Assembly: GCA_034658935.1 (NCBI GenBank)
Contig: JAYEGE010000008.1
Coordinates: 3,400-67,399 of the forward strand
Length of the DNA: 64,000 bases
Reading direction: 5' to 3'
Source: Patescibacteria group bacterium
GTDB taxonomy: Bacteria; Patescibacteriota; Minisyncoccia; Phycocordibacterales; JACOZG01
Shown here: positions 1,906 through 62,009 of the stretch, one piece after another
How positions within the stretch are numbered: the first letter of the stretch is position 1
Layout: each line of letters begins with the position of its first letter
Notes under the pieces: generated by a model
The model's input: the letters and a program-made list of their open reading frames with translations, nothing else
The model's database searches: none
What the model was told of the DNA's origin: nothing
Translations under genes and position numbers: made by a program

Positions 1906-3777
1906 ATGGCCAGAAAGTTTACGTTGATCGCTGTGGTTTTGGGTACGGTTTTTGGTCTGGGGGCAGGATGTCCACCCCACCTCGATGTGACGCCTGTAGT
2001 GCCACTACATGTCGGCATTGAGGCGCTTGACTCCGATACTGGTGAGCCACTGGAGGTTGATGGGGCGCGACGACTTGAAGTGTCGGTTGGCACTTTGGTG
2101 CATTTTGTGCCGATAGAGGTGTCGCCTCCGGCCCAAGGCGGGGGCGTTGCCGACCAGGATGCTAGTCCGGCTGGACTAGCATCTAAGCCGAAGGGGGCTG
2201 CTTTGAACAAGCTGCCTTTTTCGGAAGCGACTTTCCATTGGCGAGTCTCGAGCGAGAGTGTTCCTCGGGAATCGACCTATGACTTCAATTACACGTTTGC
2301 AACCGCGGGCGTGTATGAAGTGGCCTTGCTCCGGGTTGACGTTCATTACGTTAACCCATTGGTGATTAGTCAGGATAAAGCCAGGTTACAAGTGGTGGTA
2401 TCAGAGGAGCCGATTGTGCTTCCTCCGATTCCTCCTCCACCGGTGCCTGACCCAGGGCCGCCATTTTTTACTGGCGGTGTTGAGATCAATGGCCTGATTT
2501 TCTTTGACGGCGAGTTCAGTCTCGGTGCCGGAGAGACTCTGCGCATTGATGGCACGGGCGTGGTTAGTGGGGGGCGTTTGCCCTACACGATCCAGGTGAT
2601 TGGTTCAGACGGAACCGTCTTGGCCGAGAGTTTGGGATTGAAGTTGGACTGGACGCCAACGGAGTCGGGTACTTACACCATCCGTGTCATCGATGCGGAT
2701 GGTCGGACGCTCGATTTGGTGATTGTGCTGATTCTGATCTGCCCACCAGATTCGCCCGTGCCACCCATTCCGCCTACCCCCACCGTTAACCTGAAAATCA
2801 ACGGTGGGGACGGGCCACTAGAGCTTGTTACTCTAGCGCCAGGAGGAGTCTCGGCCAACCTCAGGTTGTCCTGGGGTTCATCTGACGCTGAAACCTTAGT
2901 CGCCTCGAGCGCCTGGTCTGGTAGCAAGTCTCTCAGTGGAACAGAAACCGTCAACGGCTTGCCGGCAGGTGACTACCTTTTTACCTTAGCGGCGACCGGT
3001 GATGGCGGTACGGCGACGGATAGCGTGGGAGTCCACGTTGTTGATCCGGCGCCGAATCTCTATCGCCTGAGGGTGACCCATACTGGCGGTGGAGACGTTA
3101 GGATTTCTCCCGCAGGTGATGGTGGTTATGAAGAAGGAGTGGTTGTCACTCTGACGGCTGTTCCCGAAACAGGCTATCGCTTCGTTGATTGGGGGGGTGA
3201 TCTGTCGGGATCGACGAGTCCTACCTCTATCACTATGGATGGTAACAAGGCGGTTACAGCGAGCTTTGCTCGCCTGACCTACGCCATTACCGCCAGTGCT
3301 GAACTTGGAGGCAGCATCGATCCTGAGGGCATCGTAATGGTCGCCCATGGCGACGACCAGCGTTTCGATTTCGTGCCCGACCCGGGCTATGAGATATTCA
3401 TGCTCTGGGTTGACGGTTTGATGGCTGATGTGGCTCTGTCTTACACATTTACCGACATGGCGACGGGTCACAACATTAGCGTGACTTTCCGGGAAATCGT
3501 TCCCCGGCCTCTGATGGCAGAGATTGTCTCGCCGGAGAATGGCACACACCATGATGTCGGCGATGAGATAATTTTCAGGGCCGAGACAAGTGGTGGTACG
3601 CCGCCTTACACTTACCATTGGTTGTTTCCAGACGGCAGTAACGTCTGGACCGACCAGGCGGGCCTTGGACACGTGTTCGATTTCGAAATCCAGAACGGGT
3701 CTGTCTATATGCAGGCTCGAGACGGAGCCGGGCTCTTGAGTCCGGTAACCCAAACCATCATCTGGGTTTACCCGTAA
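1906..3777 (+). CDS. large secreted/lipoprotein-like protein with Pro-rich linkers, InlB-B-repeat (Listeria-Bacteroides repeat)-like beta domains and a C-terminal PKD-like domain
   Basis: ATG at 1906 (MARKFTLIAVVLGTVFGLGAGC...) gives a signal or lipoprotein-like N-terminus. PPIPPPPVPDP and PPIPPTPT act as linkers. Two repeat domains (YRLRVTHTGGGDVRISPAGDGGYEEGVVVTLTAVPETGYRFVDWGGD... and YAITASAELGGSIDPEG...) are followed by PPYTYHWLFPDGS, which resembles a PKD motif. Confidence 0.55.
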   Translation: MARKFTLIAVVLGTVFGLGAGCPPHLDVTPVVPLHVGIEALDSDTGEPLEVDGARRLEVSVGTLVHFVPIEVSPPAQGGGVADQDASPAGLASKPKGAALNKLPFSEATFHWRVSSESVPRESTYDFNYTFATAGVYEVALLRVDVHYVNPLVISQDKARLQVVVSEEPIVLPPIPPPPVPDPGPPFFTGGVEINGLIFFDGEFSLGAGETLRIDGTGVVSGGRLPYTIQVIGSDGTVLAESLGLKLDWTPTESGTYTIRVIDADGRTLDLVIVLILICPPDSPVPPIPPTPTVNLKINGGDGPLELVTLAPGGVSANLRLSWGSSDAETLVASSAWSGSKSLSGTETVNGLPAGDYLFTLAATGDGGTATDSVGVHVVDPAPNLYRLRVTHTGGGDVRISPAGDGGYEEGVVVTLTAVPETGYRFVDWGGDLSGSTSPTSITMDGNKAVTASFARLTYAITASAELGGSIDPEGIVMVAHGDDQRFDFVPDPGYEIFMLWVDGLMADVALSYTFTDMATGHNISVTFREIVPRPLMAEIVSPENGTHHDVGDEIIFRAETSGGTPPYTYHWLFPDGSNVWTDQAGLGHVFDFEIQNGSVYMQARDGAGLLSPVTQTIIWVYP

Positions 3778-5112: not shown

Positions 5113-5139
5113 CTTTCTTTTAGCGCACTGCGCACAAAC

Positions 5140-5186
5140 AAAATCACCCTGATCCGCTGTGGCGGATCAGGGTGATTTTGTTTTGT
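5140..5186 (+). terminator. rho-independent terminator (18-bp perfect hairpin aaaatcaccctgatccgc/gcggatcagggtgatttt followed by a T-run)
   Basis: Perfect inverted repeat followed by TTTTGTTTTG after the stop at 5112. Confidence 0.7.
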
Positions 5187-10810: not shown

Positions 10811-10821
10811 GGCCTAGTAAC

Positions 10822-10856
10822 AAAACTCCCCCGCCAGTCGGGGGAGTTTTGTTTTG
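10822..10856 (+). terminator. rho-independent terminator (aaaactcccccg / cgggggagtttt followed by a T-run)
   Basis: Perfect 12-bp hairpin followed by TTTTGTTTTG. Confidence 0.7.
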
Positions 10857-12453: not shown

Positions 12454-12491
12454 GGCCCCACGAGAACTTGTTCTCGTGGGGCCCTTTTTTT
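12454..12491 (+). terminator. rho-independent terminator (ggccccacgagaa / ttctcgtggggcc followed by T8)
   Basis: 13-bp hairpin followed by TTTTTTTG. Confidence 0.7.
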
Positions 12492-12505: not shown

Positions 12506-13477
12506 ATGGAAGAAACGATTCTCAATTTCGCCGAACAATTCAAATGGGAGCCAGAAATAAATAATAGTGAATCACTTGGAGGAAGAACCTCCAAGTGGAT
12601 AGTTTGTGGGATGGGCGGTTCTCATCTGGCCGCAGGGCTGATGAGAGTCCATAATCCCCGGCTCGACTTATTGATTCATCGTGATTATGGTCTGCCCCGT
12701 GTACCCGATTATTTTCTCGAAGGCAGTTTAATTATTCTCAGCTCCTATTCTGGTAATACCGAAGAGATTTTAGATGCTGGTAAGGTGGCCCTAGAGCGGG
12801 GCTTGAATTTGGCGGTCATAAGTACTGATGGGGCATTACTTGAATTTGCTGAAGCTAATCAGTTGCCCTATGTTCAATCGCCAAGTTCTGACAAGCTCCA
12901 GCCGCGCATGGCCCTAGGCTATAGCTTAAAAGCGATGGCGAAATTAATTGGTAATGACGACATCTCGGTTCAGTTGAGTGCGTTGGCTGATACTCTTGAG
13001 CCGGCAGAATTACGACCGGCAGGGGAGAAGCTAGCCGAGCAGATTAAGGGTAAGATTCCCCTCTTTTATTCCTCTGTTGCCAACCTGCCCCTGGCTTATA
13101 ATTGGAAGATCAAATTCAATGAGACGGCTAAGGCGCCAGCTTTCTACAATGTTCTGCCAGAGGCGAACCATAATGAGATGGCTGGTTTCAATGGTGTTCT
13201 CGCCCAGCAGGATTTAAATCAGAAATTCTTTACTCTTTTTCTTACTGATCCCAATGACGAGCTACGCCTCGCTAAACGCTTTCAAGTCTTGGCTGAGATG
13301 TATCGAGATTGGGGGGTATCAACAGAAGAAGTGCCCCTATCGGGGGGCACTTCTTGGCAACGCATCTTTAACTCCTTAGTCTTAGCTGACTGGGCCGCCT
13401 ACCATCTGGCCACCTTGAATGGTGATGATCCAGAAGCGGTACCAATGATCGAAGAGTTCAAGAAATTAATTGGCTGA
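12506..13477 (+). CDS. bifunctional phosphoglucose/phosphomannose isomerase (SIS-domain, archaeal-type PGI/PMI)
   Basis: WIVCGMGGSHLAAGL (SIS motif) and SSYSGNTEEIL (the SxSGNTxE signature of the PGI/PMI family). Start placed at MEETILNF because the GTG at 12476 lies inside the terminator hairpin. Confidence 0.75.
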   Translation: MEETILNFAEQFKWEPEINNSESLGGRTSKWIVCGMGGSHLAAGLMRVHNPRLDLLIHRDYGLPRVPDYFLEGSLIILSSYSGNTEEILDAGKVALERGLNLAVISTDGALLEFAEANQLPYVQSPSSDKLQPRMALGYSLKAMAKLIGNDDISVQLSALADTLEPAELRPAGEKLAEQIKGKIPLFYSSVANLPLAYNWKIKFNETAKAPAFYNVLPEANHNEMAGFNGVLAQQDLNQKFFTLFLTDPNDELRLAKRFQVLAEMYRDWGVSTEEVPLSGGTSWQRIFNSLVLADWAAYHLATLNGDDPEAVPMIEEFKKLIG

Positions 13478-24676: not shown

Positions 24677-24700
24677 CTCACTATGTTTCCGGTGAGGCCA

Positions 24701-24731
24701 AAAAGGCGGCTATCGAAAGCCGCCTTTTTTG
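24701..24731. terminator. bidirectional rho-independent terminator (aaaaggcggct-atcgaa-agccgcctttttt)
   Basis: Hairpin flanked by an A-run and a T-run between convergent genes. Confidence 0.65.
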
Positions 24732-30753: not shown

Positions 30754-31281
30754 ATGAAAACTTTATTAAACGTTGGTTATTACGTGTTTATCGCCTTGGT
30801 GGTTGTCATCGGCCTCCTGCTGGTGTCTTCCTATTTCCAGTTTACTGACTCTTACCAGCTTAAAGTGGTCAAGTCTGGCTCAATGGAGCCGGCCATTAAG
30901 ACGGGTAGTTTGGTTTTGATCAGCCCAGCCAGGACTTATGGTGAGGGTGACGTTATCACTTTTGGTCGCGATGTTGGGTCTGCGGTCCCGACAACCCATA
31001 GGATTATTGGGGTGCGGGCAGAGGGCGGGACGATGCTCTATAAGACTAAGGGTGATGCCAATGAGGAGGCCGATCTCAACGAAGTTGCTCGGCGCGAGAT
31101 AATTGGTCGAGTGAATTTGAGTATTCCCATATTAGGTTATTTGTTAGATTTTGCTCGTCAGCCGATAGGCTTTGTTTTACTCATTGTCTTGCCGGCGATC
31201 ATGGTTGCGGTGGATGAGGTTTACAAAATCGTGAAGGAGATTAAAAAGATGCGTCAAAAGCGTCAAGAACATGCTGTTTAA
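30754..31281 (+). CDS. signal peptidase I, SipW-like (archaeal/eukaryotic S26B type)
   Basis: N-terminal TM helix followed by VVKSGSMEPAIKTGSLVLI, which is the SGSMEP catalytic-Ser motif of SipW-type peptidases. Length 175 aa. Confidence 0.7.
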   Translation: MKTLLNVGYYVFIALVVVIGLLLVSSYFQFTDSYQLKVVKSGSMEPAIKTGSLVLISPARTYGEGDVITFGRDVGSAVPTTHRIIGVRAEGGTMLYKTKGDANEEADLNEVARREIIGRVNLSIPILGYLLDFARQPIGFVLLIVLPAIMVAVDEVYKIVKEIKKMRQKRQEHAV

Positions 31282-33736
31282 AACAAAATCAATCGCTAGT
31301 TGTTTGATCGGAGTTGCTGTTGTTGCAGTCCTAGTCCTTCTGTCGTCCGCAGCCCTGGCCTATTACCAGGACCCAGAGGTGGGGGGCTTGGTGGGGCAGG
31401 CCACGGACCTAGACTTCATTTTAGACGTGGGGGAGTGGGCGCCGGGGGCCGATGTTGATGATTTGGAGCCGGGTGAGTCTGTCGCTCGTCTGATTAGATT
31501 GGTCGATGACGCTCCTCGCCCCTCGACTCCCTTTTGGTACCAGGTAACTGCTCTCGAGACTGGGGGTAATCCTGATTTTTGTGCGGCACTCCAATTAGAC
31601 GCCCAGGTAGACGGTGTCCCGGTCTACGATGGCCCGTTACTTAGTTTGGCTGTGGGTTTTCCACTAGCTTTCGACCCCCTGGCCTCAATTTGGGATATGC
31701 GGGTGTATTTGCCACTCGGTTCACCATCGTTAGATGATCGGCAATGCGATTTCGATTTTGTCTTTCAGGGTTGGCAGGAGCGCTTCGATGTTTTTCCAGA
31801 GGGCTATCATGATGAAGAAGTGTCCTCCAATCAGCTCTCGACTCCAGAGACACGTCAGTGTTTGATGATCAATTTTGAAACGGATGCTAATGATGCTCCG
31901 ATTGAAACTGGGCAGAGAATTAACGATGAATATTCTCCATGGGGCGTACTGATAGATGCACATAATAATAACCATCGTCACCCGGATGAGGCCATTATAT
32001 TTGACTCCGATTTACCCACTGGTCGTGATATAGATTTAGGTACTCCTAATGAAGACTTTGGTGGACCTGGCATCGGTGCTGGTGGACGTCTTGGTACACT
32101 TGGGGCCAATTTCCTTGCTCAGCATAATTTCTTGATCATTGCCGAGAACGATGAAGACGCTAACGGCGATGGCTTAGTTGATGACCCCGACGATGAAAAT
32201 GATGGCGGTTATTTGGGCTTCACCTTCGATCAACCTTCTTGGGTCAAAGAGTTGCGCCTTTTCGATATTGAGGAGCAGGGGGCCGAGGTCCAACTTTACG
32301 ATGAGGCCGGGATCAATTTCTCCACCATCGCCGTACCTCCTCTTGGTGATAACTCGGCGCAATTGGTGTATATCGACCAGGAGAATGTTAAGGAATTGCG
32401 CGTGTCTCTACCGGGCTCGGGTGCGGTGGATGATATCTGTGTCGATGTGCCACCCCCTCCAATACTCGGCTGTAGTCCTGGTTTCTGGAAAAATCATACT
32501 GAGATCTGGTTTGACCTAAATGACCCTTATGATGTTAGCCTCTTAGCCTACTTGGAAGCACAGGGAGATGGGGCCGAAGATCGACGTTATGGAGCTACCG
32601 CCCACCTGAATGCTGAATTCCCAGAGGTTGCTGTTGGGTGTGCTGAGGAAATGCCTCCAGGTACGCCACCACCACCTCCACCATCTTTCCCCGTCGTGTT
32701 AAACGAATTTCTACCGCGGCCACGAGGCGAGGACTATGGTTTTGATTTCGGTAATGATTCCAGTGTCATGCCGCAGGGCGAATGGGTGGAGCTCTACAAT
32801 AATGGTGACCAGGTATATGACCTAAGCGGTTGGTATGTTTGGGATGCCAGCAGCGATGAAAACAATAAGATTATGATTACTGTCGCCAATACCGTACCAG
32901 CCGCTACTGAGATTGCCCCCCACGATTGGTTGGTTGTGTATCTCAATCAGGCGGTCATGAATAATAACGGCGATGAAATTCGACTATATGATGGTGCTGA
33001 TGAATTAGTCGATGCTCATAGTTATAGCGGCGGTAATTATTGTGAACAAGAGCCGACACCAGGAGAGGGTAATGATACTGGCCCGAGCGAGGAGGAGTGC
33101 AATGCCGTTCCGCCGAATAAATCTTACGCCCGCATTCCTGATGGCGTTGGGGCTTGGGTGGACCCCGTTCCAACTCCGGGCGCTCCCAATATTCCAGATG
33201 ACCCAGCACTTGGTATTACCATAGAAATTGCCTTGGATGCTGTTGTGGACTTGGCTGAGAACTTCATTGTTCCATTGCGTGATATTAAGATCGTCAAGAC
33301 TACTAGCAGTGGAGGAGGTGGGTCGTCTTCGGCAGTAGTGACAGCAGCTGAAGTCGCCGATGGCCCAGCGACAGGGGGGCCGGTGGCCGTTAGTGAAGAT
33401 GACACCATGTCGGTTAGTGATACCCCAAACGCCGCAGATATTATTGAGGCAATAGATGCGTTAGGAGGCACTCCGGCAGAAGCCGTTGAGGCCGCCGAAG
33501 GTCCAGTGACGGGGGAGGCAACCGCCGTCGACGAGGGCGATACTGTATCTGCTGGCGTCACCGAGTCGGCAATGCCGGCAACCCCGGCGGACAGTAGTGC
33601 GTCTGCTGAGCCAGCGGTCCCTAGCGCCCCTGAACCAGCTCCGACCCCGGCTTCAGCGCTACCACCACCAGCCCCTGTTCCAGCCGCCGGTGGTGGTGCG
33701 GGTGCGTCTGGCGATAATCAATCAAGTGATGAATAA
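31271..33736 (+). CDS. large secreted protein with a SipW-cognate-like N-terminus, a lamin-tail domain (LTD) and a Pro/Ala/Ser-rich tail
   Basis: SSAALAYYQDPEVGG...ATDLDF is SipW-cognate-like. NEFLPRPRGEDYGFDFGNDSSVMPQGEWVELYNNGDQVYDLSGWYVWD...GDEIRLYDGADELVDAHSY matches the LTD pattern. Length 821 aa. Confidence 0.55.
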   Translation: MLFKTKSIASCLIGVAVVAVLVLLSSAALAYYQDPEVGGLVGQATDLDFILDVGEWAPGADVDDLEPGESVARLIRLVDDAPRPSTPFWYQVTALETGGNPDFCAALQLDAQVDGVPVYDGPLLSLAVGFPLAFDPLASIWDMRVYLPLGSPSLDDRQCDFDFVFQGWQERFDVFPEGYHDEEVSSNQLSTPETRQCLMINFETDANDAPIETGQRINDEYSPWGVLIDAHNNNHRHPDEAIIFDSDLPTGRDIDLGTPNEDFGGPGIGAGGRLGTLGANFLAQHNFLIIAENDEDANGDGLVDDPDDENDGGYLGFTFDQPSWVKELRLFDIEEQGAEVQLYDEAGINFSTIAVPPLGDNSAQLVYIDQENVKELRVSLPGSGAVDDICVDVPPPPILGCSPGFWKNHTEIWFDLNDPYDVSLLAYLEAQGDGAEDRRYGATAHLNAEFPEVAVGCAEEMPPGTPPPPPPSFPVVLNEFLPRPRGEDYGFDFGNDSSVMPQGEWVELYNNGDQVYDLSGWYVWDASSDENNKIMITVANTVPAATEIAPHDWLVVYLNQAVMNNNGDEIRLYDGADELVDAHSYSGGNYCEQEPTPGEGNDTGPSEEECNAVPPNKSYARIPDGVGAWVDPVPTPGAPNIPDDPALGITIEIALDAVVDLAENFIVPLRDIKIVKTTSSGGGGSSSAVVTAAEVADGPATGGPVAVSEDDTMSVSDTPNAADIIEAIDALGGTPAEAVEAAEGPVTGEATAVDEGDTVSAGVTESAMPATPADSSASAEPAVPSAPEPAPTPASALPPPAPVPAAGGGAGASGDNQSSDE

Positions 33737-35135
33737 ATTAACCCACATCTTATCCTTAGCCTGGCTCCTTGTGGCCATGAGTTGCGCCGGTACAGCTTTG
33801 GCTGATACCCGGCTGGAAGTTACCTTTGATCCTAATCCGCTCTTTGACGTCGGCAATTTTATTCCTGGCGATGAGGAGGAGGGCATAGTTACGGTGGGTA
33901 ATTTAACTGAAGTAAATCAGCAGGTGATTGCAGAGGCTATTAACGTCGACGACCCAGACACCTTGGGTCAGATGATTTCTCTGGAGATTCGTGACGGTGC
34001 TGACAATCAAATTTTTAGCGACGAGTTGGCCGAGTTCTTAAGAATAGGTGAAGTGGACTTAGCCGAGCTCCTTGCTAGCGATAGCCAGACTTTTGTTTTC
34101 ACTGCGAGATTTGAAGATACCGAAGATAATACTTGGCAAGAATCGAGCCTAGCTTTTGATCTATGTATCGGGTTCCGTGGGGATGACCAATCTATGAATT
34201 GTGGAGGGACGGTGATCGGCGAGGAACAGGATCTTGATTCCGGCGACCTCGACGGTGATACTCCTGGCGGCGGCACTGTGAGCGGCGGCCGCCGACTCAC
34301 TATCCATGACGAGCGAGTGGAGAGCATTAACGCCCCAGCTGGCACCGCTGTAATCACTTGGCGAACTAATCTCCTGGCCACCAGTCAGGTCATCTATGGT
34401 CTGTCTGAAGTCGGCCCCTATACTCTTGATCTTGAAGCGATTAATTTTGGCTATTCATCGATGACACCCGAGGACCCTATTAAGGTCCTCGATCATACAA
34501 TGACTATTGGAGGTTTGGTGCCGGGAGCCGTCTATGATTACCGAGTGGTTTCGCGCGCCTCTCCGCCAACTATTAGCCCGGCGCACCAATTTACGGTGCC
34601 GGCCTCTGACGGCACGCCTCCTTCGGAATTATTGGCACTAGTCCCCGGAAATGTTTTGCCGGCTGGTGTTAACTCACCGACGGGCGTAGGGGATCAGGAC
34701 GAAGGCGGCTCATCGCCATCCTCCTCTGGGTTGGTAGACGATAGCGTTGGTGCGGCCGGTCTTGATGGCGGGGGAGATAAGACTGGAGTAGATGGTAATG
34801 CCACCGACACTGGCAATCTTGCTGCTGCCCTGTTTGCCTTCCCAGAGGACTTGGCGGCGTTTCTAGACTGTGCCTGGGCTTGGCTGATCGCTCTCTTAAT
34901 AATCTATATTGTTTGGCGCTTGTGGCGGGCCTATCACCCTCATTATCGCTCTAGCGCTGTTTCGAGCAAAGACTTAGCCATAGACAGGTCTCATTTCTTT
35001 ATGGTTGCCATCGTCGCGGCTGGTATAATCTTGGCCCTGATGGATAGGTATTGCGCTCTCTGGCCACTAATAATCGTCTTCATTATTTTCCTAATCATTC
35101 GTATTAAATTGGGCGGCAGGCAGGTGGCGGCTTAG
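33729..35135 (+). CDS. secreted protein with a C-terminal membrane anchor
   Basis: Start placed at MNKLTHILSLAWLLVAMSCAGTALA, which is a signal peptide. The ORF track begins upstream, overlapping the previous gene. C-terminal TM helices are present. Confidence 0.5.
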   Translation: MNKLTHILSLAWLLVAMSCAGTALADTRLEVTFDPNPLFDVGNFIPGDEEEGIVTVGNLTEVNQQVIAEAINVDDPDTLGQMISLEIRDGADNQIFSDELAEFLRIGEVDLAELLASDSQTFVFTARFEDTEDNTWQESSLAFDLCIGFRGDDQSMNCGGTVIGEEQDLDSGDLDGDTPGGGTVSGGRRLTIHDERVESINAPAGTAVITWRTNLLATSQVIYGLSEVGPYTLDLEAINFGYSSMTPEDPIKVLDHTMTIGGLVPGAVYDYRVVSRASPPTISPAHQFTVPASDGTPPSELLALVPGNVLPAGVNSPTGVGDQDEGGSSPSSSGLVDDSVGAAGLDGGGDKTGVDGNATDTGNLAAALFAFPEDLAAFLDCAWAWLIALLIIYIVWRLWRAYHPHYRSSAVSSKDLAIDRSHFFMVAIVAAGIILALMDRYCALWPLIIVFIIFLIIRIKLGGRQVAA

Positions 35136-36416
35136 CTATTGGCCCAGGCGGAGATTGCCCTTAGCGACAAGGGAAGCCCCGATGTTGCATCGGGGTTCTT
35201 CGCTGTTTAAGGCTCTAAAATAGCCTGCGGCGGCGATCATGGTGGCATTATCGGTTGCCAGGGTGACGTCGGGGAAGAGTACTTTAATTGAGCTATTTTG
35301 GCCCTCTAGGGCCTGTCCCAAAGCTTGCTTGAGGCTTTTGTTGGCCATGACTCCACCGGCGGCAATAAAGGTTTTTGGCCCGTGTTTCTCGGCCGCTTTA
35401 AGGGTTTTGTGGACCAAGACGTCAATTACTGCTTGCTGAAATTCAGCCGCGATGGCCGCCTTGGTGGTTTGATCCAGCTCTTCTGCTCCGCCGAGTTTTT
35501 TGACCAAATAAAGTACCGCCGTTTTGAGCCCTGAAAAGGAAAAATCAAAATCCTTAGAATTAATCATCGGCCTCGGCAGCCCCCACTTGCACTTGGACAT
35601 TGAATGTCCAAGTGGCCCATTCTGACCTGGACATTCAATGTCCAGGTGGTTCTTAGCTAGTTTAGAAATTTCTGGTCCGCCCGGGTAGGGCAGGTCGAGG
35701 ATGCGAGCTACCTTGTCGAAGGCTTCACCGGCGGCATCATCGCGGGTCTGGCCGATAATTTCGTAATCAAGCCAATCGCGCATCAGTACCAACTCCGTAT
35801 GCCCCCCACTTACTATCAACCCCAAAACAGGAAACTCTATTTTTTTGGACTTTGGACTTCGCAATTTGAATTTCCTGTCAGTTATCAGAACTGACAGCAA
35901 GTGTCCTTCTAAGTGATTGATGGGCACCAACGGTTTGCCCCAAGCGAGAGCAAGGGCTTTGGCCGCGTTGATTCCCACCCATAGGGCTGGTTCTAGTCCG
36001 GGGCCTTCAGTGACAGCGATGACGTCAATATCTGACACCTCATTGGCGTCGAGAAAAGCCAGCAGTTTTTCAGCCAACTCTGGCTCACGTTCTAAAATCT
36101 CTTTAATTTCTTCCCGTATTTCTTTCTCAAGTTTGTTGGCCCCGTTTTCTTTTTTTGAACCCCGTCTCGCCGTCGGGCAGGTTTGAACTTTGAACTTTGA
36201 CATTTCTAGTGCCCTCTTCAGTAGGGGCACTAGGCGTTTAGCGTGTTCGCGTTTGGCCAGCATGGGCACCACACCACCGTAGAGGGTGTGTAAGTCTACT
36301 TGCGAATGGACGGCTTCGGCTAGAACTTCAAAAACAGGCCGCTCGAAGCCGCCTTTAGCTGACACTATACTAACCGCTGTCTCGTCGCAGCTTGTTTCAA
36401 TCGCGAGTATTTTCAT
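35136..36416 (-). CDS. tsaD: tRNA N6-adenosine threonylcarbamoyltransferase TsaD, carrying three insertions
   Basis: MKILAIETSCDETAVSIV, HLEGHLLS, VSGGHTELV and DFSFSGLKT are all present. At 426 aa it is longer than the roughly 340 aa typical. Confidence 0.85.
   Translation of the reverse strand: MKILAIETSCDETAVSIVSAKGGFERPVFEVLAEAVHSQVDLHTLYGGVVPMLAKREHAKRLVPLLKRALEMSKFKVQTCPTARRGSKKENGANKLEKEIREEIKEILEREPELAEKLLAFLDANEVSDIDVIAVTEGPGLEPALWVGINAAKALALAWGKPLVPINHLEGHLLSVLITDRKFKLRSPKSKKIEFPVLGLIVSGGHTELVLMRDWLDYEIIGQTRDDAAGEAFDKVARILDLPYPGGPEISKLAKNHLDIECPGQNGPLGHSMSKCKWGLPRPMINSKDFDFSFSGLKTAVLYLVKKLGGAEELDQTTKAAIAAEFQQAVIDVLVHKTLKAAEKHGPKTFIAAGGVMANKSLKQALGQALEGQNSSIKVLFPDVTLATDNATMIAAAGYFRALNSEEPRCNIGASLVAKGNLRLGQ
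35585..35646. repeat. pair of perfect palindromes (25 nt cacttggacattgaatgtccaagtg and 21 nt cctggacattcaatgtccagg) inserted in-frame within tsaD
   Basis: Seen directly in the sequence. Together they encode the extra peptide HLDIECPGQNGPLGHSMSKCK, which is absent from canonical TsaD. Confidence 0.75.
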
Positions 36417-39676: not shown

Positions 39677-39720
39677 TCCTCGCCACGACGTGGTTTTAAC
39701 GAAGTCGAGACGAGTCATTG

Positions 39721-39745
39721 TCAAGGTCGGACCTTGCCACGGGCG
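39721..39745. repeat. solitary degenerate copy of the element-3 terminal palindrome (tgtcaaggtcggaccttgccacg)
   Basis: Matches cactgtcaaggtc(c/g)gaccttgacagtg of 57229-57255 and 57996-58022, with a mutated 3' arm. Confidence 0.55.
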
Positions 39746-43071: not shown

Positions 43072-43825
43072 TGTGCAACACTTAGTGTTGCACAAATGAG
43101 CTGAGCTTACTAAACTGTAGTGGATATGCGTCGGATCAAAATCAGTCCAGGAGAATGTTACCATCTTTATAATAGAGGCAATAATAAGCAGAACATATTC
43201 CGTGATAATCGTGATCGAGCCCGCCTCCTCTTCCTTTTGATAGGTTTGCAATCCGAACTATCTTTCAAAAATATCAGTCGATTAGTTTCAGCTTTAACTA
43301 AAAGACCAAAACTTATCTTGAATGCTCGAGTTGTCTCTGAGGTTAGTGCAGCTCGTTACGTTGATCTAATTAGTTTTGTCTTAATGCCCAACCATTTTCA
43401 TTTAATTGTTTTTGAACGCAAAGAAGGTGGTATTGCTAAATACATGCAACGAGCGCTCAACGCCTATACAAAATATTTTAATACTCGGTATAAAAAAATG
43501 GGCATGTATTTGGGGGGACATACCAAGCCGTTCATATCGAAGACAATGATCAGCTTCTTTATGCTTCTGCCTATCTCCACAGAAATGCTCACCAATTACC
43601 AGTTTGGACTGGTCGCTCGGCGGAGTATCCTTGGTCAAGTTATAGTGATTACGTCGGAAATAATCGGTGGGGGGAGCTTTTAAACCGGCGAATGATTATG
43701 GAACAATTTGTCGACGGTAACGAATACCGACAGTGGGTTGAGACCAGTAGTGCCAAGGACCAAGATTGGGAATTTCAAGAGGGGAACTAAATTGTGCAAC
43801 ACTGTGCAACACTTAGTGTTGCACA
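43072..43825 (+). mobile_element. IS200/IS605-like mini-element 2 (palindrome tgtgcaacac-tta-gtgttgcaca at both ends)
   Basis: Hairpins at 43072-43094 and 43803-43825, plus an extra half-copy at 43793-43802. Total length 754 bp. Confidence 0.65.
43120..43790 (+). pseudogene. Y1 HUH transposase paralog, frameshifted
   Basis: The N-terminal part (CYHLYNRGNNKQNIF...LMPNHFHLIV) is in one frame. The C-terminal part (...LLYASAYLHRNAHQLPVWTGRSAEYPWSSY...) is in another. The switch falls at the A7/G6 homopolymers around 43500-43520. Confidence 0.6.
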
Positions 43826-43829
43826 GAAA

Positions 43830-49103: not shown

Positions 49104-49691
49104 TTAATAATTACCCGGGGCCCCGGGTAAGATTGCCAAACGGGCTGGTGGGAAGAGGCGGACTAGGGCCCGGCCAGTGATCATCTCTCCAGGCAGGGCC
49201 CCCCAATTGCGGGAGTCAAAACTAACATCACGATTATCTCCCATGACAAAATACTCGTTGTCCTTGAGGGAGAGCTCGGTGTCGATCAAGGGGTTCTCTG
49301 GGCTCTGAAGGTATGGTTCATCCACATTAATTATTTGTCCGTCGCGCAGAATGTTGATCTTATTATTAGTGATTACTATCTGTTCGCCAGGCAAACCGAT
49401 GATTCGTTTGATGAAGAACTTCTTTGGGTTTTTGGGGTAGCGGAAAATAATAACTTCTCCTCGTGTTGGTTTGCGAAAGAGGTAAGAGGCCTCATCAACG
49501 ATCAAATACTCCTTGTCCTCAAAAGTTGGGTACATTGAGGCCCCGCTGACGATGAAGGGTTGAGCAATATAAGTTCGGATGGGGATGACAATAATCAGAG
49601 TGAGGATGACCATCTTGATTACTTCCCAGGCGGTAGACTTAAAATTGCTAGACATGAGACCCAGTTTATTACAAATAAATGGCTGAGGCAA
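49104..49691 (-). CDS. lepB: signal peptidase I (bacterial type)
   Basis: SGASMYPTF (Ser box) and GDNRDVSFDSRNWG (box E). Confidence 0.85.
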   Translation of the reverse strand: MPQPFICNKLGLMSSNFKSTAWEVIKMVILTLIIVIPIRTYIAQPFIVSGASMYPTFEDKEYLIVDEASYLFRKPTRGEVIIFRYPKNPKKFFIKRIIGLPGEQIVITNNKINILRDGQIINVDEPYLQSPENPLIDTELSLKDNEYFVMGDNRDVSFDSRNWGALPGEMITGRALVRLFPPARLAILPGAPGNY

Positions 49692-51610: not shown

Positions 51611-51709
51611 TTTGTCAAGCCTTTCTGTTGGTCGGCACTTGTTTTGAGGCCCAAAACAGCAAAATACGGCTCAATTGAGCCGTATTTCGGAGAATTTCTC
51701 GTGGTTTAT

Positions 51710-57228: not shown

Positions 57229-58022
57229 CACTGTCAAGGTCCGACCTTGACAGTGAAGTTATCCCCCTAAAACAGGGGGTATATCTTTGGCAAGGTCCGA
57301 CCTTGGGGTAGAATTGACCAATGACTAGGAGGTTTAAGTTTGCTCCTGGAGAGTATTACCATATTTATAATCGAGGCAATGATCGCCGCAGTATTTTCCT
57401 ATCTGGCAAAGACCGTGATCGCTTTCTCGCTCTGCTTTACGTTTGCAATAGTGGCGAGGTTCTCCATCTGAGTGATTACCCCCAAACCTCCCTGCTGAAA
57501 TTGCTGAGTCTGCCTAGGTCTTCAGTATTGGCAGATATCGGTGCCTATTGTTTGATGCCAAACCATTTCCACTTATTGGTACGGGAGAACGAGGAGGGTG
57601 GCATTAGCCGCTTGATGCAGAAATTACTGACTGCTTACACCATGTATTTTAATCGTAAGCATCAACACACCGGCTCTTTGTTTGAGGGTCGCTTTCGAGC
57701 CAGACACGTTAGCGACGATCGACATTTGCAGTATCTCTTCGCCTATATTCATCTCAATCCTGTTAAGGTTAGAGACCCTGACAATTGGGAGAAAAAAACT
57801 ATTCTCGATACGGATGAAGCGGTACGTTTTTTGAATACCTACCCGTACTCTAGTTTTCTCGATTATCTCGGTCGGAATAGGGGAGAGGGGGCAATCATAA
57901 ACCCGTCGGCTTTCCCAGAGTATTTTTCGGTGCCGTCTGATTTCTCCGATTTTGTACAGGATTGGATGAGTTTTGACGAAGAGGAGGATCTCACCACTGT
58001 CAAGGTCGGACCTTGACAGTGA
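57229..58022 (+). mobile_element. IS200/IS605-like mini-element 3 (palindrome cactgtcaaggtc-c/g-gaccttgacagtg at both ends)
   Basis: Hairpins at 57229-57255 and 57996-58022 lie within 40-bp direct repeats. An extra partial hairpin is at 57291-57305. Total length 794 bp. Confidence 0.65.
57321..58016 (+). CDS. Y1 HUH transposase (IS200-like / RAYT-like)
   Basis: CLMPNHFHLLV (HUH motif) and YLFAYIHLNPVK (Tyr motif). Length 231 aa. About 60% similar to the 20862 copy. Confidence 0.7.
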   Translation: MTRRFKFAPGEYYHIYNRGNDRRSIFLSGKDRDRFLALLYVCNSGEVLHLSDYPQTSLLKLLSLPRSSVLADIGAYCLMPNHFHLLVRENEEGGISRLMQKLLTAYTMYFNRKHQHTGSLFEGRFRARHVSDDRHLQYLFAYIHLNPVKVRDPDNWEKKTILDTDEAVRFLNTYPYSSFLDYLGRNRGEGAIINPSAFPEYFSVPSDFSDFVQDWMSFDEEEDLTTVKVGP

Positions 58023-59920: not shown

Positions 59921-60355
59921 ATGTTATTTTTTTCTCGACTCAGTAATAAGTCCTGGCTTGCGATATCCTGCTTCCTGCTTGTCCTCGTGGTTTTATTATT
60001 GACCCCGGCTCTGACCTTTGCTCAGGATGGGATTGTTCCCTGTAAGGACGGGTGCGGCTTCGCAGATCTCATACAGCTTATAAAAAATCTCTTAGGTTGG
60101 TTTGTGATGATTGCTGTGCCGGTGGCTACCATGATGATTGTCTATGCTGGCGCCCTGCTTGTCACTGCCCCGACAGATACCGGTAAGCGCGTTAAGGCTA
60201 AAAGTGTTTTCAAGGTGGCAGTCATCGGCTTGGTTGCTGTCTTGGCCGCCTGGCTGATCGTTGATACAATATTAAATGAGTTAACTGGCACGGGGATTGA
60301 TCAGAGAACAGAAAATATATCATCCTCTGCGCCACCACTCCTTAGACAGTCATGA
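59921..60355 (+). CDS. VirB2/TrbC-like small pilin-family membrane protein (paralog 1)
   Basis: Signal peptide ending ALTFA, followed by two hydrophobic helices (LGWFVMIAVPVATMMIVYAGALLV and FKVAVIGLVAVLAAWLIV). Confidence 0.55.
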   Translation: MLFFSRLSNKSWLAISCFLLVLVVLLLTPALTFAQDGIVPCKDGCGFADLIQLIKNLLGWFVMIAVPVATMMIVYAGALLVTAPTDTGKRVKAKSVFKVAVIGLVAVLAAWLIVDTILNELTGTGIDQRTENISSSAPPLLRQS

Positions 60356-60798
60356 TCAAAAGAAAAGCATTTTTACACCACCTAAGTGTGTTACTGGCCA
60401 CGTTTATGGTGTTTGGCCTGTTTTCTACTGCTGGCGTTGCCTTAGCGGGTCCCCTTGGGGGCGGCGAGACGAGTGAGTCATCCGGTGGTTTAACCAATCC
60501 ACTTGAGCCTGCCGGCATAGATAGTATTCCCCTTCTTATAGATAAAATCTTAGAGATAGTTGTTAAGGTGGGATTACCGATTGTGGCGATAGCGATAATC
60601 TACACTGGTTTCCTTTTTGTCTCGGCCCGAGGCGATCCCAGCAAATTAACTACAGCCAAGGACGCCTTTAAATACACCATCATCGGCGCTGCTATTGTCT
60701 TGGGGGCCGCCGTCATTTCTGCGGCTATCAATGCGACAGTGGACGAGATAAGGTCTGATGCTACCGTGCTTATTAATATTTTCTCAAATATTGTATGA
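60352..60798 (+). CDS. VirB2/TrbC-like small pilin-family membrane protein (paralog 2)
   Basis: Signal peptide ending GVALAG and two TM helices (FKYTIIGAAIVLGAAVISAAI). Its start overlaps the stop of the previous gene. Confidence 0.55.
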   Translation: MIKRKAFLHHLSVLLATFMVFGLFSTAGVALAGPLGGGETSESSGGLTNPLEPAGIDSIPLLIDKILEIVVKVGLPIVAIAIIYTGFLFVSARGDPSKLTTAKDAFKYTIIGAAIVLGAAVISAAINATVDEIRSDATVLINIFSNIV

Positions 60799-61145
60799 AG
60801 AGATTATATCCCAGCCTATTGATTGCTCTTATCGCTTTGCCTGCGGTGGCCTTGGCGACTGATCGCACTATTGCCCAAATAATCAAAGAGACCCTCATCC
60901 GTGATTTGGCTCCCCCCGTTGTTGTCCTTATTCTTACATTGGCGCTAGTTTATTTCTTCGCTGGAGTTGCTAAGTATATTGGCAAGGCTGGCGAGAGCAA
61001 AGATCGGGAAGAGGGTAAGAAGATGATGGTCTACGGCATTATTGGTCTGGCGGTAATGATCGCAGTCTGGGGACTTGTTGCTCTGCTGGTGAATACCTTT
61101 TTCCCTGGGGGGCCTCCTGACGCTATCCCCACCCTTACGTTGTAA
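60795..61145 (+). CDS. VirB2/TrbC-like small pilin-family membrane protein (paralog 3)
   Basis: Signal peptide ending VALA and two TM helices (MMVYGIIGLAVMIAVWGLVALLV). Confidence 0.55.
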   Translation: MKRLYPSLLIALIALPAVALATDRTIAQIIKETLIRDLAPPVVVLILTLALVYFFAGVAKYIGKAGESKDREEGKKMMVYGIIGLAVMIAVWGLVALLVNTFFPGGPPDAIPTLTL

Positions 61146-61239
61146 TTCATAGCCCAGATTAGAGGGTGTGGTACAATTTGAATAGTTAGTATAATTATAA
61201 AAGGTCGTTTTTAGGTATTATTATTGTTATTAAAAAAAT

Positions 61240-61587
61240 ATGAGTAAAGTTGGAAAATGGTTCATGGGGATAGGAGTTTTCGCCCTTCCTATGTTGGCAG
61301 CTGCCGAAAATTTGGAAGATACCGTGGGCACTGTTGATTCATTGCTGCGATCTGTCATCCCTATAATTATGGTTTTGGCCATCCTCTACTTCTTCTGGGG
61401 ATTGGTCAAGTACATCCAGGCCGCCGGGGATGCTGGTAAGGCCTCAGAAGGGAAGAGCATCATGATCTATGGTATTATTGCCCTTTTCGTGATGTCAGCC
61501 ATTTGGGGTTTGGTAGGATTACTGTCTGAGACTTTTGTCTCTGATGGTGGCGATGCTCCTGATTCGGCAGATCTACTTCCCACATAA
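61240..61587 (+). CDS. VirB2/TrbC-like small pilin-family membrane protein (paralog 4)
   Basis: Signal peptide ending LAAA and two TM helices (IMIYGIIALFVMSAIWGLVGLL). Confidence 0.55.
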   Translation: MSKVGKWFMGIGVFALPMLAAAENLEDTVGTVDSLLRSVIPIIMVLAILYFFWGLVKYIQAAGDAGKASEGKSIMIYGIIALFVMSAIWGLVGLLSETFVSDGGDAPDSADLLPT

Positions 61588-61973: not shown

Positions 61974-62009
61974 CGTCCCGGTCCGCCATGGCGGACCGGG
62001 GCGTTTTTG
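61974..62009 (+). terminator. rho-independent terminator (cccggtccgcc-at-ggcggaccggg followed by a T-run)
   Basis: 11-bp perfect hairpin followed by GCGTTTTTG. Confidence 0.7.

What the first reader, a model, noticed from the sequence alone, without database searches (positions are those of the whole stretch)
35585..35646. Palindromic DNA inserted in-frame inside the essential gene tsaD
A perfect 25-nt palindrome and a perfect 21-nt palindrome, sharing the core ggacattgaatgtcc / ggacattcaatgtcc, lie 11 nt apart within tsaD. Relative to canonical TsaD (...AAQGTAGRFVFPRPM...) they add about 21 residues (HLDIECPGQNGPLGHSMSKCK) with no stop codon. A tandem cacttg-cacttgg immediately precedes them. 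Two other tsaD-specific insertions, coding RKFKLRSPKSKKIE and about 50 aa after LKRALE, also coincide with inverted or tandem DNA repeats at about 35845-35875 and 36150-36200. This looks like miniature inverted-repeat insertions tolerated as surface loops in a universally conserved enzyme, a way such genomes may gain lineage-specific insertions.
Basis: seen in the sequence. Interest (0 to 1): 0.6.

Follow-up and report, generated by a model that had tools for sequence, protein, structure and literature searches.

The report
Mobile palindrome pair inside tsaD
Two short DNA palindromes translated as a loop of the essential enzyme TsaD belong to a repeat family spread through Patescibacteria genomes; the family flanks transposase-like genes and sits in frame in many housekeeping genes, so mobile palindromes probably create these bacteria's extra protein loops.

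Summary
tsaD (35136-36416, minus strand) carries two perfect palindromes, at 35590-35614 and 35625-35647. They are reverse complements of each other, 34 nt centre to centre, and are read in two frames as HLDIECPG and PLGHSMSK.

They are not strain-specific. Four orthologues (57-66% protein identity) keep a perfect palindrome at the same position, through paired substitutions that change amino acids. Codons for shared residues are identical in 45/52 cases there, against 1021/2482 elsewhere in the gene.

They are not tsaD-specific either. The core ACTTGGACA-N5-TGTCCAAGT occurs in at least 119 stretches of public genomes, mostly Patescibacteria:
- It flanks and interrupts IS200-like Y1 (RAYT-like) transposase genes in 12 loci.
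- It lies in frame, in all three frames, in UvrA, DnaE, LigA, GatB, MnmA, SHMT, several tRNA synthetases and others.
- One genome has an identical 53-nt doublet in both PheT and GatB.

The window itself holds two RAYT-like genes, each flanked by its own 25-27-nt palindromes.

Best reading: a REP/REPIN-type element tolerated in a variable TsaD loop. The closest precedents are Rickettsia palindromic elements and the intragenic REPs described in 2013. This family is new in lineage, sequence, perfect symmetry and mostly intragenic location. RAYT-driven movement is inferred.

The parts
35136..36416 (-). tsaD (426 aa), intact, with three lineage-specific inserts
   Evidence: ORF. It is 100% identical to a Patescibacteria TsaD, with PF00814, and matches PDB TsaD at E = 1e-66. 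The AF2 model has mean pLDDT 85.8, with low confidence only in the inserts.
35590..35614 (.). Palindrome B, CACTTGGACATT-G-AATGTCCAAGTG. On the coding strand it reads P-LGHSMSK-C (frame 1 of the family).
   Evidence: (I4). Four orthologues keep a perfect palindrome at this position.
35625..35647 (.). Palindrome A, ACCTGGACATT-C-AATGTCCAGGT. On the coding strand it reads HLDIECPG (frame 2). It is the reverse complement of B apart from one compensated pair.
   Evidence: (I5, I1). Also present in L001 and L003 with the same 34-nt centre spacing.
35584..35596 (.). Tandem duplication CACTTG-CACTTGG of the outer arm; it adds residues CK.
   Evidence: An analogous TCCAAGT duplication occurs in orthologue L003.
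35827..35900 (.). DNA under insert 2 (RKFKLRSPKSKKIE): TTTGGAC x2 tandem, an imperfect 16-nt inverted repeat and a perfect 9-bp hairpin, CTGTCAGTT/AACTGACAG.
   Evidence: (I3, I6). Whether it is related to the palindrome family is only inferred.
36170..36200 (.). DNA under the start of insert 1: TTTGAAC x2-3 tandem. On the coding strand, ATGTCAAAGT resembles the arm ATGTCCAAGT.
   Evidence: The similarity is weak and not statistically supported.
12573..12597 (.). Related palindrome CACTTGGAGG-AAGAA-CCTCCAAGTG in the phosphoglucose isomerase-like gene, read in frame as SLGGRTSKW.
57321..58016 (+). RAYT-like Y1 (HUH) transposase gene, 'RAYT2' (231 aa).
   Evidence: PF01797 at 38.7 bits against a cutoff of 23. 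The best NCBIfam hit is the REP-associated tyrosine transposase model, below its cutoff. The HUH motif and YIHLNP tyrosine are visible.
57229..57255 (.). Family-B palindrome CACTGTCAAGGTC-C-GACCTTGACAGTG, 5' of RAYT2.
57995..58021 (.). Family-B palindrome, centre G, overlapping the 3' end and stop codon of RAYT2.
39716..39740 (.). Dispersed family-B copy (GTCAAGGTCGGACCTTG core) downstream of tRNA-Ser.
43120..43683 (+). Second RAYT-like gene, 'RAYT1', apparently frameshifted after a G-run near 43510.
   Evidence: PF01797 at 26.7 bits. The sequence reads on in another frame.
43072..43094 (.). Family-C palindrome TGTGCAACACT-T-AGTGTTGCACA, 5' of RAYT1.
43802..43826 (.). Family-C palindrome CTGTGCAACACT-T-AGTGTTGCACAG, 3' of RAYT1.

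Best explanation
The feature is a head-to-head doublet (REPIN-like) of a 23-25-nt perfect palindrome, with core ACTTGGACA-N5-TGTCCAAGT. It belongs to a REP-type repeat family that is dispersed in Patescibacteria genomes and is physically associated with a family of RAYT-like (IS200-type Y1 HUH) transposase genes.

Shown:
- The doublet occupies a variable, low-confidence loop of TsaD, between the ...PEISKLA helix and the conserved LPRPM motif.
- It is translated in two frames.
- It has been kept at that codon position in at least five species-level lineages.
- In those lineages its two-fold DNA symmetry is preserved by paired substitutions, even where these change the encoded residues.
- The arms contain no stop codon in any of the six frames, so any in-phase insertion stays open.

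Inferred mechanism:
- The palindromes extrude as hairpins in single-stranded DNA.
- They are cut and rejoined by the RAYT-like enzyme, as in known REP/RAYT and IS200/IS605 systems.
- Copies landing in genes survive only in permissive loops.
- Local slippage (CACTTG-CACTTG) and hairpin-templated correction, or replacement by the genome's master copy, then shape them.

The net effect on the host is extra peptide in surface loops.
For: Structure of the feature:
- Palindromes and doublet are confirmed.
- The region folds far better than shuffles, with DNA z = -4.3 and RNA z = -4.9.

Conservation in orthologues:
- Orthologues keep perfect palindromes at the same site. CAT/ATG replaces CAC/GTG, and CTG..CAGG replaces TTG..CAAG, as paired changes.
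- Identical-residue codons are the same codon in 45/52 cases within the palindromes, against 1021/2482 in the rest of the gene.

Dispersal:
- The genome-contig scan found at least 119 stretches, mostly Patescibacteria.
- 107 of 126 copies have A..T flanks beyond the searched pattern, and 117 of 126 have a Watson-Crick Y..R pair.

Transposase association:
- RAYT2 homologues are present in 15 of 119 loci.
- In 12 loci, copies lie beside the gene, consistently on its 5' side (about 18 nt before the ATG where read) and after the stop in 8 of them (about 15 nt where read). In 10 of those 12, copies also sit in frame at two loops inside it.
- The window has two RAYT-like genes, each flanked by its own palindrome family.

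In-frame copies in real housekeeping genes:
- Pfam confirms the host genes.
- The copies are insertions relative to solved SHMT and MnmA structures.
- An identical 53-nt doublet lies in PheT and GatB of genome CAYWCU01.

Genome-specific variants:
- The inner variant is shared by the tsaD copy and the dispersed copies of the same genome.

tsaD inserts in general:
- The inserts of other CPR tsaD genes carry other long perfect palindromes, including family-B-like ones.
- AF2 confidence is low over residues 256-279.
Against: - No RAYT gene flanked by the ACTTGGACA-type palindrome lies in the 64-kb window. This genome's cognate enzyme is therefore unknown. Only three copies at two loci (tsaD x2, pgi x1) are seen here.
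- The family lacks the GTAG/CGTC tag of described REPs: only 8 of 252 ends have it.
- Copies are perfect rather than imperfect palindromes, and are mostly intragenic.
- Retention of perfect symmetry at one orthologous site across about 35-40% protein divergence is more than a decaying selfish insertion predicts. It points to renewal, conversion or host-level function, and none of these has been shown.
- No experiment links these RAYT-like proteins to these hairpins.
Confidence: 0.75

Rival explanations
1. Host-domesticated DNA motif. The palindrome would be a binding or recognition site for a host function, such as nucleoid or gyrase binding, replication-linked processing or a DNA-uptake signal, and would be kept by selection wherever it lies, genes included. 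Under this reading the RAYT-like protein is a domesticated partner, not a transposase.
For: - The core sequence is conserved across many Patescibacteria classes.
- The tsaD site is retained, with compensatory changes, across five species.
- Recurrent presence at equivalent positions of UvrA, MnmA, PheT and ComEC in different genomes.
- REPINs and RAYTs are argued in the literature to be long-lived, vertically inherited partners (abstracts listed).
Against: - Density is low: three copies in 64 kb here.
- Identical doublets in unrelated genes of one genome, and genome-specific variants including a faithfully copied imperfect one, are signatures of copying, not of independent selection.
- There is no positional regularity relative to genes.
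Confidence: 0.12
2. A cis-acting element of tsaD itself: an mRNA hairpin or operator that tunes tsaD translation, stability or co-translational folding.
For: - Very stable predicted fold.
- DNA-level conservation with compensatory substitutions in tsaD orthologues.
Against: - The same sequence is found at more than 100 other places: in at least 15 other gene families, between genes and around RAYT genes.
- No G-U pairs appear in any tsaD copy.
- More distant tsaD genes carry unrelated palindromes or none at that loop.
Confidence: 0.07
3. A protein-level motif (for example H/D/C/H metal ligands in HLDxxCP...LGH), with the DNA symmetry as a by-product.
For: - The peptide motifs HLDxxCP and LGHxxSK recur in orthologues.
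- AF2 draws a small beta-hairpin at residues 264-274.
Against: - Synonymous positions are conserved at 87% against 41% elsewhere.
- Amino acids change (V to M, S to G, T to I) exactly where needed to keep base pairing.
- The same DNA is read in three different frames in different proteins.
- pLDDT is only about 56-81 in the insert.
Confidence: 0.03
4. Palindromes generated locally and repeatedly by template-switch (quasipalindrome) mutation, with no mobile element involved.
For: - Perfect symmetry up to a 1-nt centre.
- Local tandem duplications of arm sequence.
Against: This cannot produce the same 23-nt sequence in hundreds of unrelated sites and genomes, nor its association with RAYT-like genes.
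Confidence: 0.03

Closest known systems
REP / REPIN elements with RAYT (REP-associated tyrosine transposase) genes (PMC3116915; PMC3337134; PMC6006769)
   Same: - Short palindromic units.
- Doublets in inverted orientation able to form one long hairpin.
- Dispersed copies, with genome-specific variants.
- Y1 HUH transposase-like genes bordered by the same repeat.
- No target-site duplication is evident.
   Different: - Classical REPs are almost wholly extragenic. Only 14 of 1,067 16-mers overlap genes in P. fluorescens SBW25 (PMC3116915). Here 79 of 126 copies lie in stop-free frames of 200 aa or more.
- Here the units are perfect palindromes with a 1-5-nt centre.
- There is no GTAG tag.
- Copy numbers are low.
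- Copies sit in frame inside the transposase-like gene itself.
- The proteins score below NCBI's RAYT equivalog cutoff.
- The host lineage is Patescibacteria. I found no paper in the held library that links RAYT or REPIN to it.
Intragenic GTAG/CGTC REPs (Di Nocera et al. 2013, PMC3733652)
   Same: - REP singles and dimers inside known genes, encoding 20-30 extra residues.
- Often in replication and repair genes such as uvrA.
- Argued to sit in loops or linkers.
   Different: - Those families carry a GTAG or CGTC tag and are a minority of otherwise intergenic repeats.
- They were found in Opitutus, Rickettsia, Thioalkalivibrio and others.
- Here the intragenic state is the majority state, and the family is untagged.
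Rickettsia palindromic elements (RPE; Ogata et al. 2000 and 2002, as summarised in PMC10969869)
   Same: - Palindromic selfish DNA inserted in frame into many unrelated housekeeping genes of a small-genome bacterium.
- Compatible with protein fold.
   Different: - RPEs are about 100-150 bp and restricted to Rickettsia, and no dedicated transposase is known for them.
- Here the units are 23-25 nt (doublets about 50-60 nt) and carry a RAYT-like association.
IS200/IS605 transposons and their non-autonomous derivatives
   Same: - A Y1 HUH enzyme (PF01797) with hairpin-forming subterminal sequences.
- Single-strand DNA chemistry is expected (PMC6006769).
   Different: - No TnpB partner.
- The flanking hairpins are near-identical perfect palindromes, not distinct left and right ends.
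- The gene appears single and stationary, while the hairpins are what is dispersed.
Coding palindromes in Nematomorpha mitochondrial genes (PMC6649704)
   Same: Perfect inverted repeats embedded in functional protein-coding genes, with structure and coding preserved together.
   Different: Those are long (up to 284 bp), lie in conserved protein regions, are mitochondrial, and have no known transposase.

Membership tests
REP/REPIN-RAYT system | Short (about 20-40 nt) palindromic unit able to form a stem-loop | tested here: met
   The units are 25 nt and 23 nt, with 12-bp and 11-bp perfect arms. DNA and RNA folds give z = -4.3 and -4.9.
REP/REPIN-RAYT system | Two units in inverted orientation with a short spacer, forming a larger hairpin (REPIN) | tested here: met
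   - Repeat I1 has 24-nt arms at 92% complementarity with an 11-nt spacer.
- In L001 and L003, copy B is the exact reverse complement of copy A, loop included.
- The RNA minimum-energy structure is one long hairpin.
REP/REPIN-RAYT system | Many dispersed copies within a genome | tested here: inconclusive
   - In the window: two loci (tsaD x2, pgi x1) in 64 kb.
- In other genomes: at least 5-9 copies on several contigs, namely CAYIMH01, CAZJOI01 and JAHITU01.
- The scan was truncated, and the window's whole genome was not available.
REP/REPIN-RAYT system | A RAYT (Y1 HUH transposase) gene bordered by the same repeat | tested here: met
   - For the ACTTGGACA family: 12 loci in other Patescibacteria genomes.
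- For the window: met for families B and C.
- Not met for the tsaD family within the 64 kb.
REP/REPIN-RAYT system | Extragenic location | tested here: not met
   79 of 126 copies lie in stop-free frames of 200 aa or more. 18 of the 20 frames checked have housekeeping Pfam domains.
REP/REPIN-RAYT system | Conserved GTAG (or CGTC) tetranucleotide at one end | tested here: not met
   Only 8 of 252 ends read AAGTAG. The position after CCAAGT is G 44%, T 34%, A 17%.
REP/REPIN-RAYT system | RAYT binds and cleaves the hairpin in single-stranded DNA | not testable with these tools
   Only the HUH and Tyr motifs are visible in the alignments.
NCBIfam NF047646 REP-associated tyrosine transposase (equivalog) | Score above the curated cutoff (80 bits) | tested here: not met
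   RAYT2 scores 51.1 bits and RAYT1 22.1 bits. NF047646 is the best and only family hit. Pfam PF01797 is above its own cutoff.
Rickettsia palindromic elements (RPE) | An element of about 100-150 bp belonging to the Rickettsia RPE families | tested here: not met
   The units here are 23-25 nt, the doublet is 58 nt, and the host is Patescibacteria.
Rickettsia palindromic elements (RPE) | In-frame insertion into many unrelated functional genes | tested here: met
MITE (TIR-bounded miniature transposon) | Terminal inverted repeats around an internal segment, plus target-site duplication | tested here: not met
   The unit is a simple hairpin. The two identical doublets in PheT and GatB show no flanking duplication (contexts).
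DNA uptake sequences | A 9-12-nt motif at about one per kb, with no transposase association | tested here: not met
   There are three copies in 64 kb, the unit is a 23-nt palindrome, and copies flank RAYT-like genes.

The most novel reading that the evidence does not exclude
Patescibacteria carry an old, phylum-wide RAYT/REP-type system. Its stop-free perfect palindromes live mainly inside genes, including essential genes and their own transposase gene. They are renewed or conserved at the same protein loops over long evolutionary times. This would make them a principal generator of the lineage-specific protein insertions typical of these ultra-small bacteria, and possibly a domesticated partner rather than a parasite.
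Probability: 0.4. Interest if true: 0.8.

Novelty: new variant of a known kind. Interest (0 to 1): 0.62.

Why it matters
Proteins of Patescibacteria (CPR) often carry unexplained lineage-specific inserts. This case gives a concrete, testable source for them: short mobile palindromes that are open in all six frames and settle in permissive loops.

It would also extend REPIN/RAYT-type systems beyond the lineages where they have been studied, into genomes with almost no intergenic space. That may explain why the elements live inside genes there.

The combination of an orthologous site kept for a long time with a genome-specific sequence variant bears on two open questions: whether such elements are parasites or long-term partners, and how they are renewed.

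There is a practical point too. These inserts create recurring peptides (LGHxxSK, LDxxCPS, TWTxxVQV) that can mislead homology searches and alignments.

Tried and rejected
- **Chance.** Rejected. The core occurs twice against 0.12 expected. The window holds 24 palindromes with arms of 9 bp or more, against 1.4 in Markov shuffles.
- **Strain-specific recent insertion.** Rejected. Four orthologues at 57-66% identity carry a palindrome at the same site.
- **Protein-level conservation only.** Rejected by the codon test and the three reading frames.
- **tsaD-specific regulatory hairpin.** Rejected as the main reading by the dispersal data.
- **GTAG/CGTC-tagged REP.** Tested and not found.
- **Consistently inverted orientation of the copies flanking RAYT genes.** Tested and not consistent, so not claimed.
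- **Finding this genome's cognate RAYT by walking off the window.** Two contig look-ups added only about 1.3 and 2.4 kb, with no further copy.
- **Is the pgi palindrome an insertion?** The only solved relative aligns from just after it, so this is unresolved.
- **Metagenome tsaD loci.** Twenty CPR-size genes were usable in the final analysis.
- **Are the window's inserts 1 and 2 relics of the palindrome arms?** The 9/10 and 6/7 matches are within chance expectation, so this is only mentioned.
- **Literature.** Searches found no paper in the held library that links RAYT or REPIN to Patescibacteria. That library is incomplete.
Full report
**1. The observation**

The gene is tsaD, on the minus strand at 35136-36416 (426 aa). 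It is 100% identical to a TsaD annotated in a Patescibacteria metagenome-assembled genome. It matches solved TsaD structures at E = 1e-66.

Plus-strand positions 35590-35614 read CACTTGGACATT-G-AATGTCCAAGTG (12-bp arms). Positions 35625-35647 read ACCTGGACATT-C-AATGTCCAGGT (11-bp arms). Both are perfect palindromes.

Relations between the two units:
- They are reverse complements of each other (24-nt arms, 92%), 34 nt apart centre to centre.
- The core occurs twice in the window, against 0.12 expected.
- On the coding strand they are read in two different frames: CAC CTG GAC ATT GAA TGT CCA GGT gives HLDIECPG, and CCA CTT GGA CAT TCA ATG TCC AAG TGC gives PLGHSMSKC.
- The CACTTG-CACTTGG tandem is present.

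Against Salmonella and E. coli TsaD this loop is 16 residues longer. The 86-nt region folds far better than shuffles. As DNA it forms two hairpins (z = -4.3). As RNA it forms one long hairpin (z = -4.9).

**2. It is not strain-specific, and the DNA symmetry itself is conserved**

All close relatives are Parcubacteria-type TsaDs of 380-450 aa, with variable inserts at the same three places. I fetched the DNA of the four closest orthologues, which are 57-66% identical in protein.
- All four carry a perfect palindrome at the position of copy B.
- Two of them (L001, L003) also carry copy A, again exactly 34 nt away centre to centre.

The differences between species are paired:
- The window has CAT...ATG (His, Met) where the others have CAC...GTG (His, Val).
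- The window's copy A has CTG...CAGG (Leu, Gly) where the others have TTG...CAAG (Leu, Ser).
- L003 and L004 have ACACC-W-GGTGT where the window has ACATT-S-AATGT.

So a synonymous change on one arm goes with an amino-acid change on the other. In L001 the 5-nt loop of copy A (CTTCG) is the exact complement of that of copy B (CGAAG).

I compared codons at positions where two orthologues share a residue encoded by a degenerate codon family. They use the same codon in 45/52 cases inside the palindromes, against 1021/2482 in the rest of the gene. The constraint is therefore on the nucleic acid, not on the peptide.

**3. The window contains the likely machinery for such elements**

A census of perfect hairpins (arms of 9 bp or more, loop of 6 nt or less) finds 24 in the window, against about 1.4 in Markov shuffles. 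Some are terminator-like. Two pairs stand out:
- CACTGTCAAGGTC-S-GACCTTGACAGTG at 57229-57255 and 57995-58021.
- (C)TGTGCAACACT-T-AGTGTTGCACA(G) at 43072-43094 and 43802-43826.

Each pair brackets an ORF with the IS200-like Y1 transposase domain: PF01797 at 38.7 and 26.7 bits, against a cutoff of 23. For both ORFs the only NCBIfam hit is the REP-associated tyrosine transposase model, below its equivalog cutoff. HUH and Tyr motifs are present.

A further copy of the first family lies downstream of tRNA-Ser at 39716-39740. A relative of the tsaD palindrome, CACTTGGAGG-AAGAA-CCTCCAAGTG, lies in frame in the phosphoglucose isomerase-like gene at 12573-12597, where it is read SLGGRTSKW.

**4. The tsaD palindrome is a dispersed Patescibacteria repeat associated with RAYT-like genes**

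I scanned one genome per species for CTTGGACAYNNNRTGTCCAAG.

Among 126 copies in Patescibacteria-like loci:
- 107 have A and T immediately outside the searched pattern, where 1/16 is expected.
- 117 have a Watson-Crick Y..R pair.

RAYT2 homologues (27-40% identity) occur in 15 of the 119 loci. In 12 of these, copies of the palindrome lie beside the gene. There is always one on the 5' side (about 18 nt before the ATG where I read it) and, in 8 of the 12, one after the stop (about 15 nt where read). In 10 of the 12, copies also lie in frame at one or both of two loops inside the gene, as ...Q-LGHxMSK-LV... and ...KVH-LGHRxSK-SSW.... Some of the loci without an internal pattern match carry degenerate versions at the same sites, such as QLGSEASK in L016.

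The orientation of the flanking copies is not consistent. There is no GTAG or CGTC tag.

**5. It is inserted in frame in many housekeeping genes, and it moves**

79 of the 126 copies lie in stop-free frames of 200 aa or more. All three frames are used: LGHxxSK 36 times, xLDxxCPS 23, TWTxxVQV 20.

I checked 20 of these frames against Pfam. Eighteen are clear housekeeping genes:
- UvrA (x2), DnaE, LigA
- PheT (x2), a class-I (Val/Leu-type) tRNA synthetase, ArgS, GltX, CysS
- ComEC (x2), GatB (x2), MnmA (x2)
- an ATP synthase alpha/beta-family subunit, and SHMT

Against solved structures the palindrome-encoded residues are insertions: +9 aa in SHMT, and +14 aa for the doublet in MnmA. Different genomes carry singlets or doublets at equivalent loops of UvrA, MnmA, PheT and ComEC.

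In genome CAYWCU01 an identical 53-nt inverted doublet, encoding NLDTRCPSALGHRVSKL, sits in both PheT and GatB. I take this as direct evidence of duplicative movement of the doublet as a unit.

Inner variants are homogeneous within genomes and differ between them:
- CAYIMH01 has ACCAGGT in 5 of 6 copies, including its tsaD copy.
- CAZJOI01 has the window's variant, ATTCAAT, in 5 of 5.
- JAHIOX01 has an imperfect variant, faithfully copied, in 3 of 3.

**6. tsaD inserts in general**

I compared 20 CPR-size tsaD genes with 61 ordinary-size ones.
- Long palindromes occur at 0.88 per kb in the CPR-size genes, against 0.13 per kb in the ordinary-size ones.
- 15 of 21 fall in columns that are insertions relative to ordinary TsaD. 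Those columns hold 17% of residues (binomial p = 4e-8).
- Five of the 20 genes are the close orthologues, so the counts are not fully independent.

Examples from other lineages:
- A family-B-like ACTGTCAAGGTG-A-CACCTTGACAGT in insert 1 of L126, and TCAAGGTG-T-CACCTTGA in its insert 3.
- A GGACATCSGATGTCC doublet in insert 3 of L128.
- Other palindromes in insert 2 of L136, L137 and L152.

The AF2 model of the window protein is confident overall (mean pLDDT 85.8). It is weak exactly in the three inserts: residues 71-100, 181-190 and 256-279.

For the window's own inserts 1 and 2, only short tandems and weak inverted repeats are present. Their origin from palindromic elements is an inference by analogy.

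**7. Interpretation**

Shown:
- A REPIN-like doublet of a dispersed palindrome family lies in a variable TsaD loop and is translated.
- It is kept symmetric at the DNA level across species.
- The family is tied to RAYT-like genes and is inserted in many genes.

Inferred:
- Hairpins in single-stranded DNA are processed by the RAYT-like Y1 enzyme, by analogy with REP/RAYT and IS200/IS605 (PMC6006769, PMC3116915).
- Only in-phase insertions in permissive loops survive. This is helped by arms that have no stop codon in any frame.
- Slippage and hairpin-templated correction shape the copies afterwards.

Unexplained: the tsaD site is orthologous in five species, with identical spacing but unrelated spacer sequence, yet each copy carries its own genome's variant. 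This needs either repeated replacement at a safe-haven site or conversion by the genome's master copy.

**8. Comparison with known systems**

- REP/REPIN-RAYT systems are the closest mechanistically. However, classical REPs are extragenic: only 14 of 1,067 16-mers overlap genes in P. fluorescens SBW25 (PMC3116915). They are also imperfect palindromes, and many carry a GTAG tag.
- Intragenic REP singles and dimers encoding 20-30 residues, often in replication and repair genes such as uvrA, were described in Opitutus, Rickettsia and Thioalkalivibrio (PMC3733652).
- Rickettsia RPEs are the classic case of in-frame palindromic insertions (PMC10969869).

The kind of phenomenon is therefore known. 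Five things appear new here:
- the host superphylum;
- the untagged, perfect 23-nt palindrome conserved across it;
- the predominance of intragenic copies, including copies within the RAYT-like gene;
- the long retention at orthologous loops;
- the systematic coincidence with CPR-specific protein inserts.

I found no paper in the held library that links RAYT or REPIN with Patescibacteria. That library is incomplete.

**9. Verdict**

I rate it a new variant of a known kind, with interest 0.62.

Noticed in passing
window 43120-43790: The RAYT-like gene 'RAYT1' appears frameshifted after a G-run near 43508-43516. The conserved C-terminal part (…FGGTYQAVHIEDNDQLLYASAYLHRNA…) continues in another frame. 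It is either a pseudogene or an assembly error in a homopolymer.
   Followed up: partly
window 5136-5183, 10819-10853, 24700-24729, 12454-12483: Long perfect GC-rich hairpins with A/T-run flanks lie between genes. One example has 22-bp arms: AAACAAAATCACCCTGATCCGC-TGTG-GCGGATCAGGGTGATTTTGTTT. They look like bidirectional intrinsic terminators, not members of the palindrome families.
   Followed up: no
window 2158-2183, 13326-13355, 49111-49130, 51662-51687, 61977-62000: Further perfect palindromes (arms of 10-13 bp, loops of 0-6 nt) lie inside or at the ends of ORFs. The hosts are a surface-repeat protein, the 3' end of pgi, the HisS/signal-peptidase junction, and two ORFs with no Pfam hit. 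No second copy of any of them is in the window.
   Followed up: partly
alignment A1 and GatB locus L054: AT-rich peptide motifs such as FLISN/FLISK, EIRN and LEIQNF recur at different insert positions of TsaD and GatB in other Parcubacteria (P0005, P0012, P0028, P0117, L054). They may be the translated products of other genome-specific repeat families.
   Followed up: no
L029:7495-7998 (Bacteroidia MAG JACJYV010000003.1): A tandem repeat of about 179 nt, in three copies at 95-98% identity, contains ACTTGGACA..TGTCCAAGT-like motifs in a non-Patescibacteria genome.
   Followed up: partly
L058, L091, L093, L118, L121 (Holophagaceae/Geothrix MAGs): All five match the search pattern (TCTTGGACACGAAGTGTCCAAGC in L058 and L121; related variants in the other three) inside long ORFs, read as FLDTxCPS in four and in another frame in L093. 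They lack the A..T flanks of the Patescibacteria family. This is probably a conserved coding motif, not the mobile element.
   Followed up: no
loci L004/L086, L035 and others: Several MAGs whose record titles say 'uncultured Candidatus Saccharibacteria' or 'Bdellovibrionales' carry Parcubacteria-type genes. CAYIMH01, for example, carries a Parcubacteria-type TsaD 63% identical to the window's, together with the same palindrome family. The names in those titles look unreliable.
   Followed up: no
window 60352-61587 (gene calls on L206): Four adjacent small genes with T4SS_pilin (PF18895) hits lie next to a solute-binding protein gene and a methyltransferase gene, just downstream of RAYT2.
   Followed up: no
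window 31271-35135: Two large secreted-looking proteins (821 and 512 aa) with long Pro/Ala/Ser/Gly-rich low-complexity tails lie immediately convergent with tsaD. The second ends one base before the tsaD stop codon.
   Followed up: no
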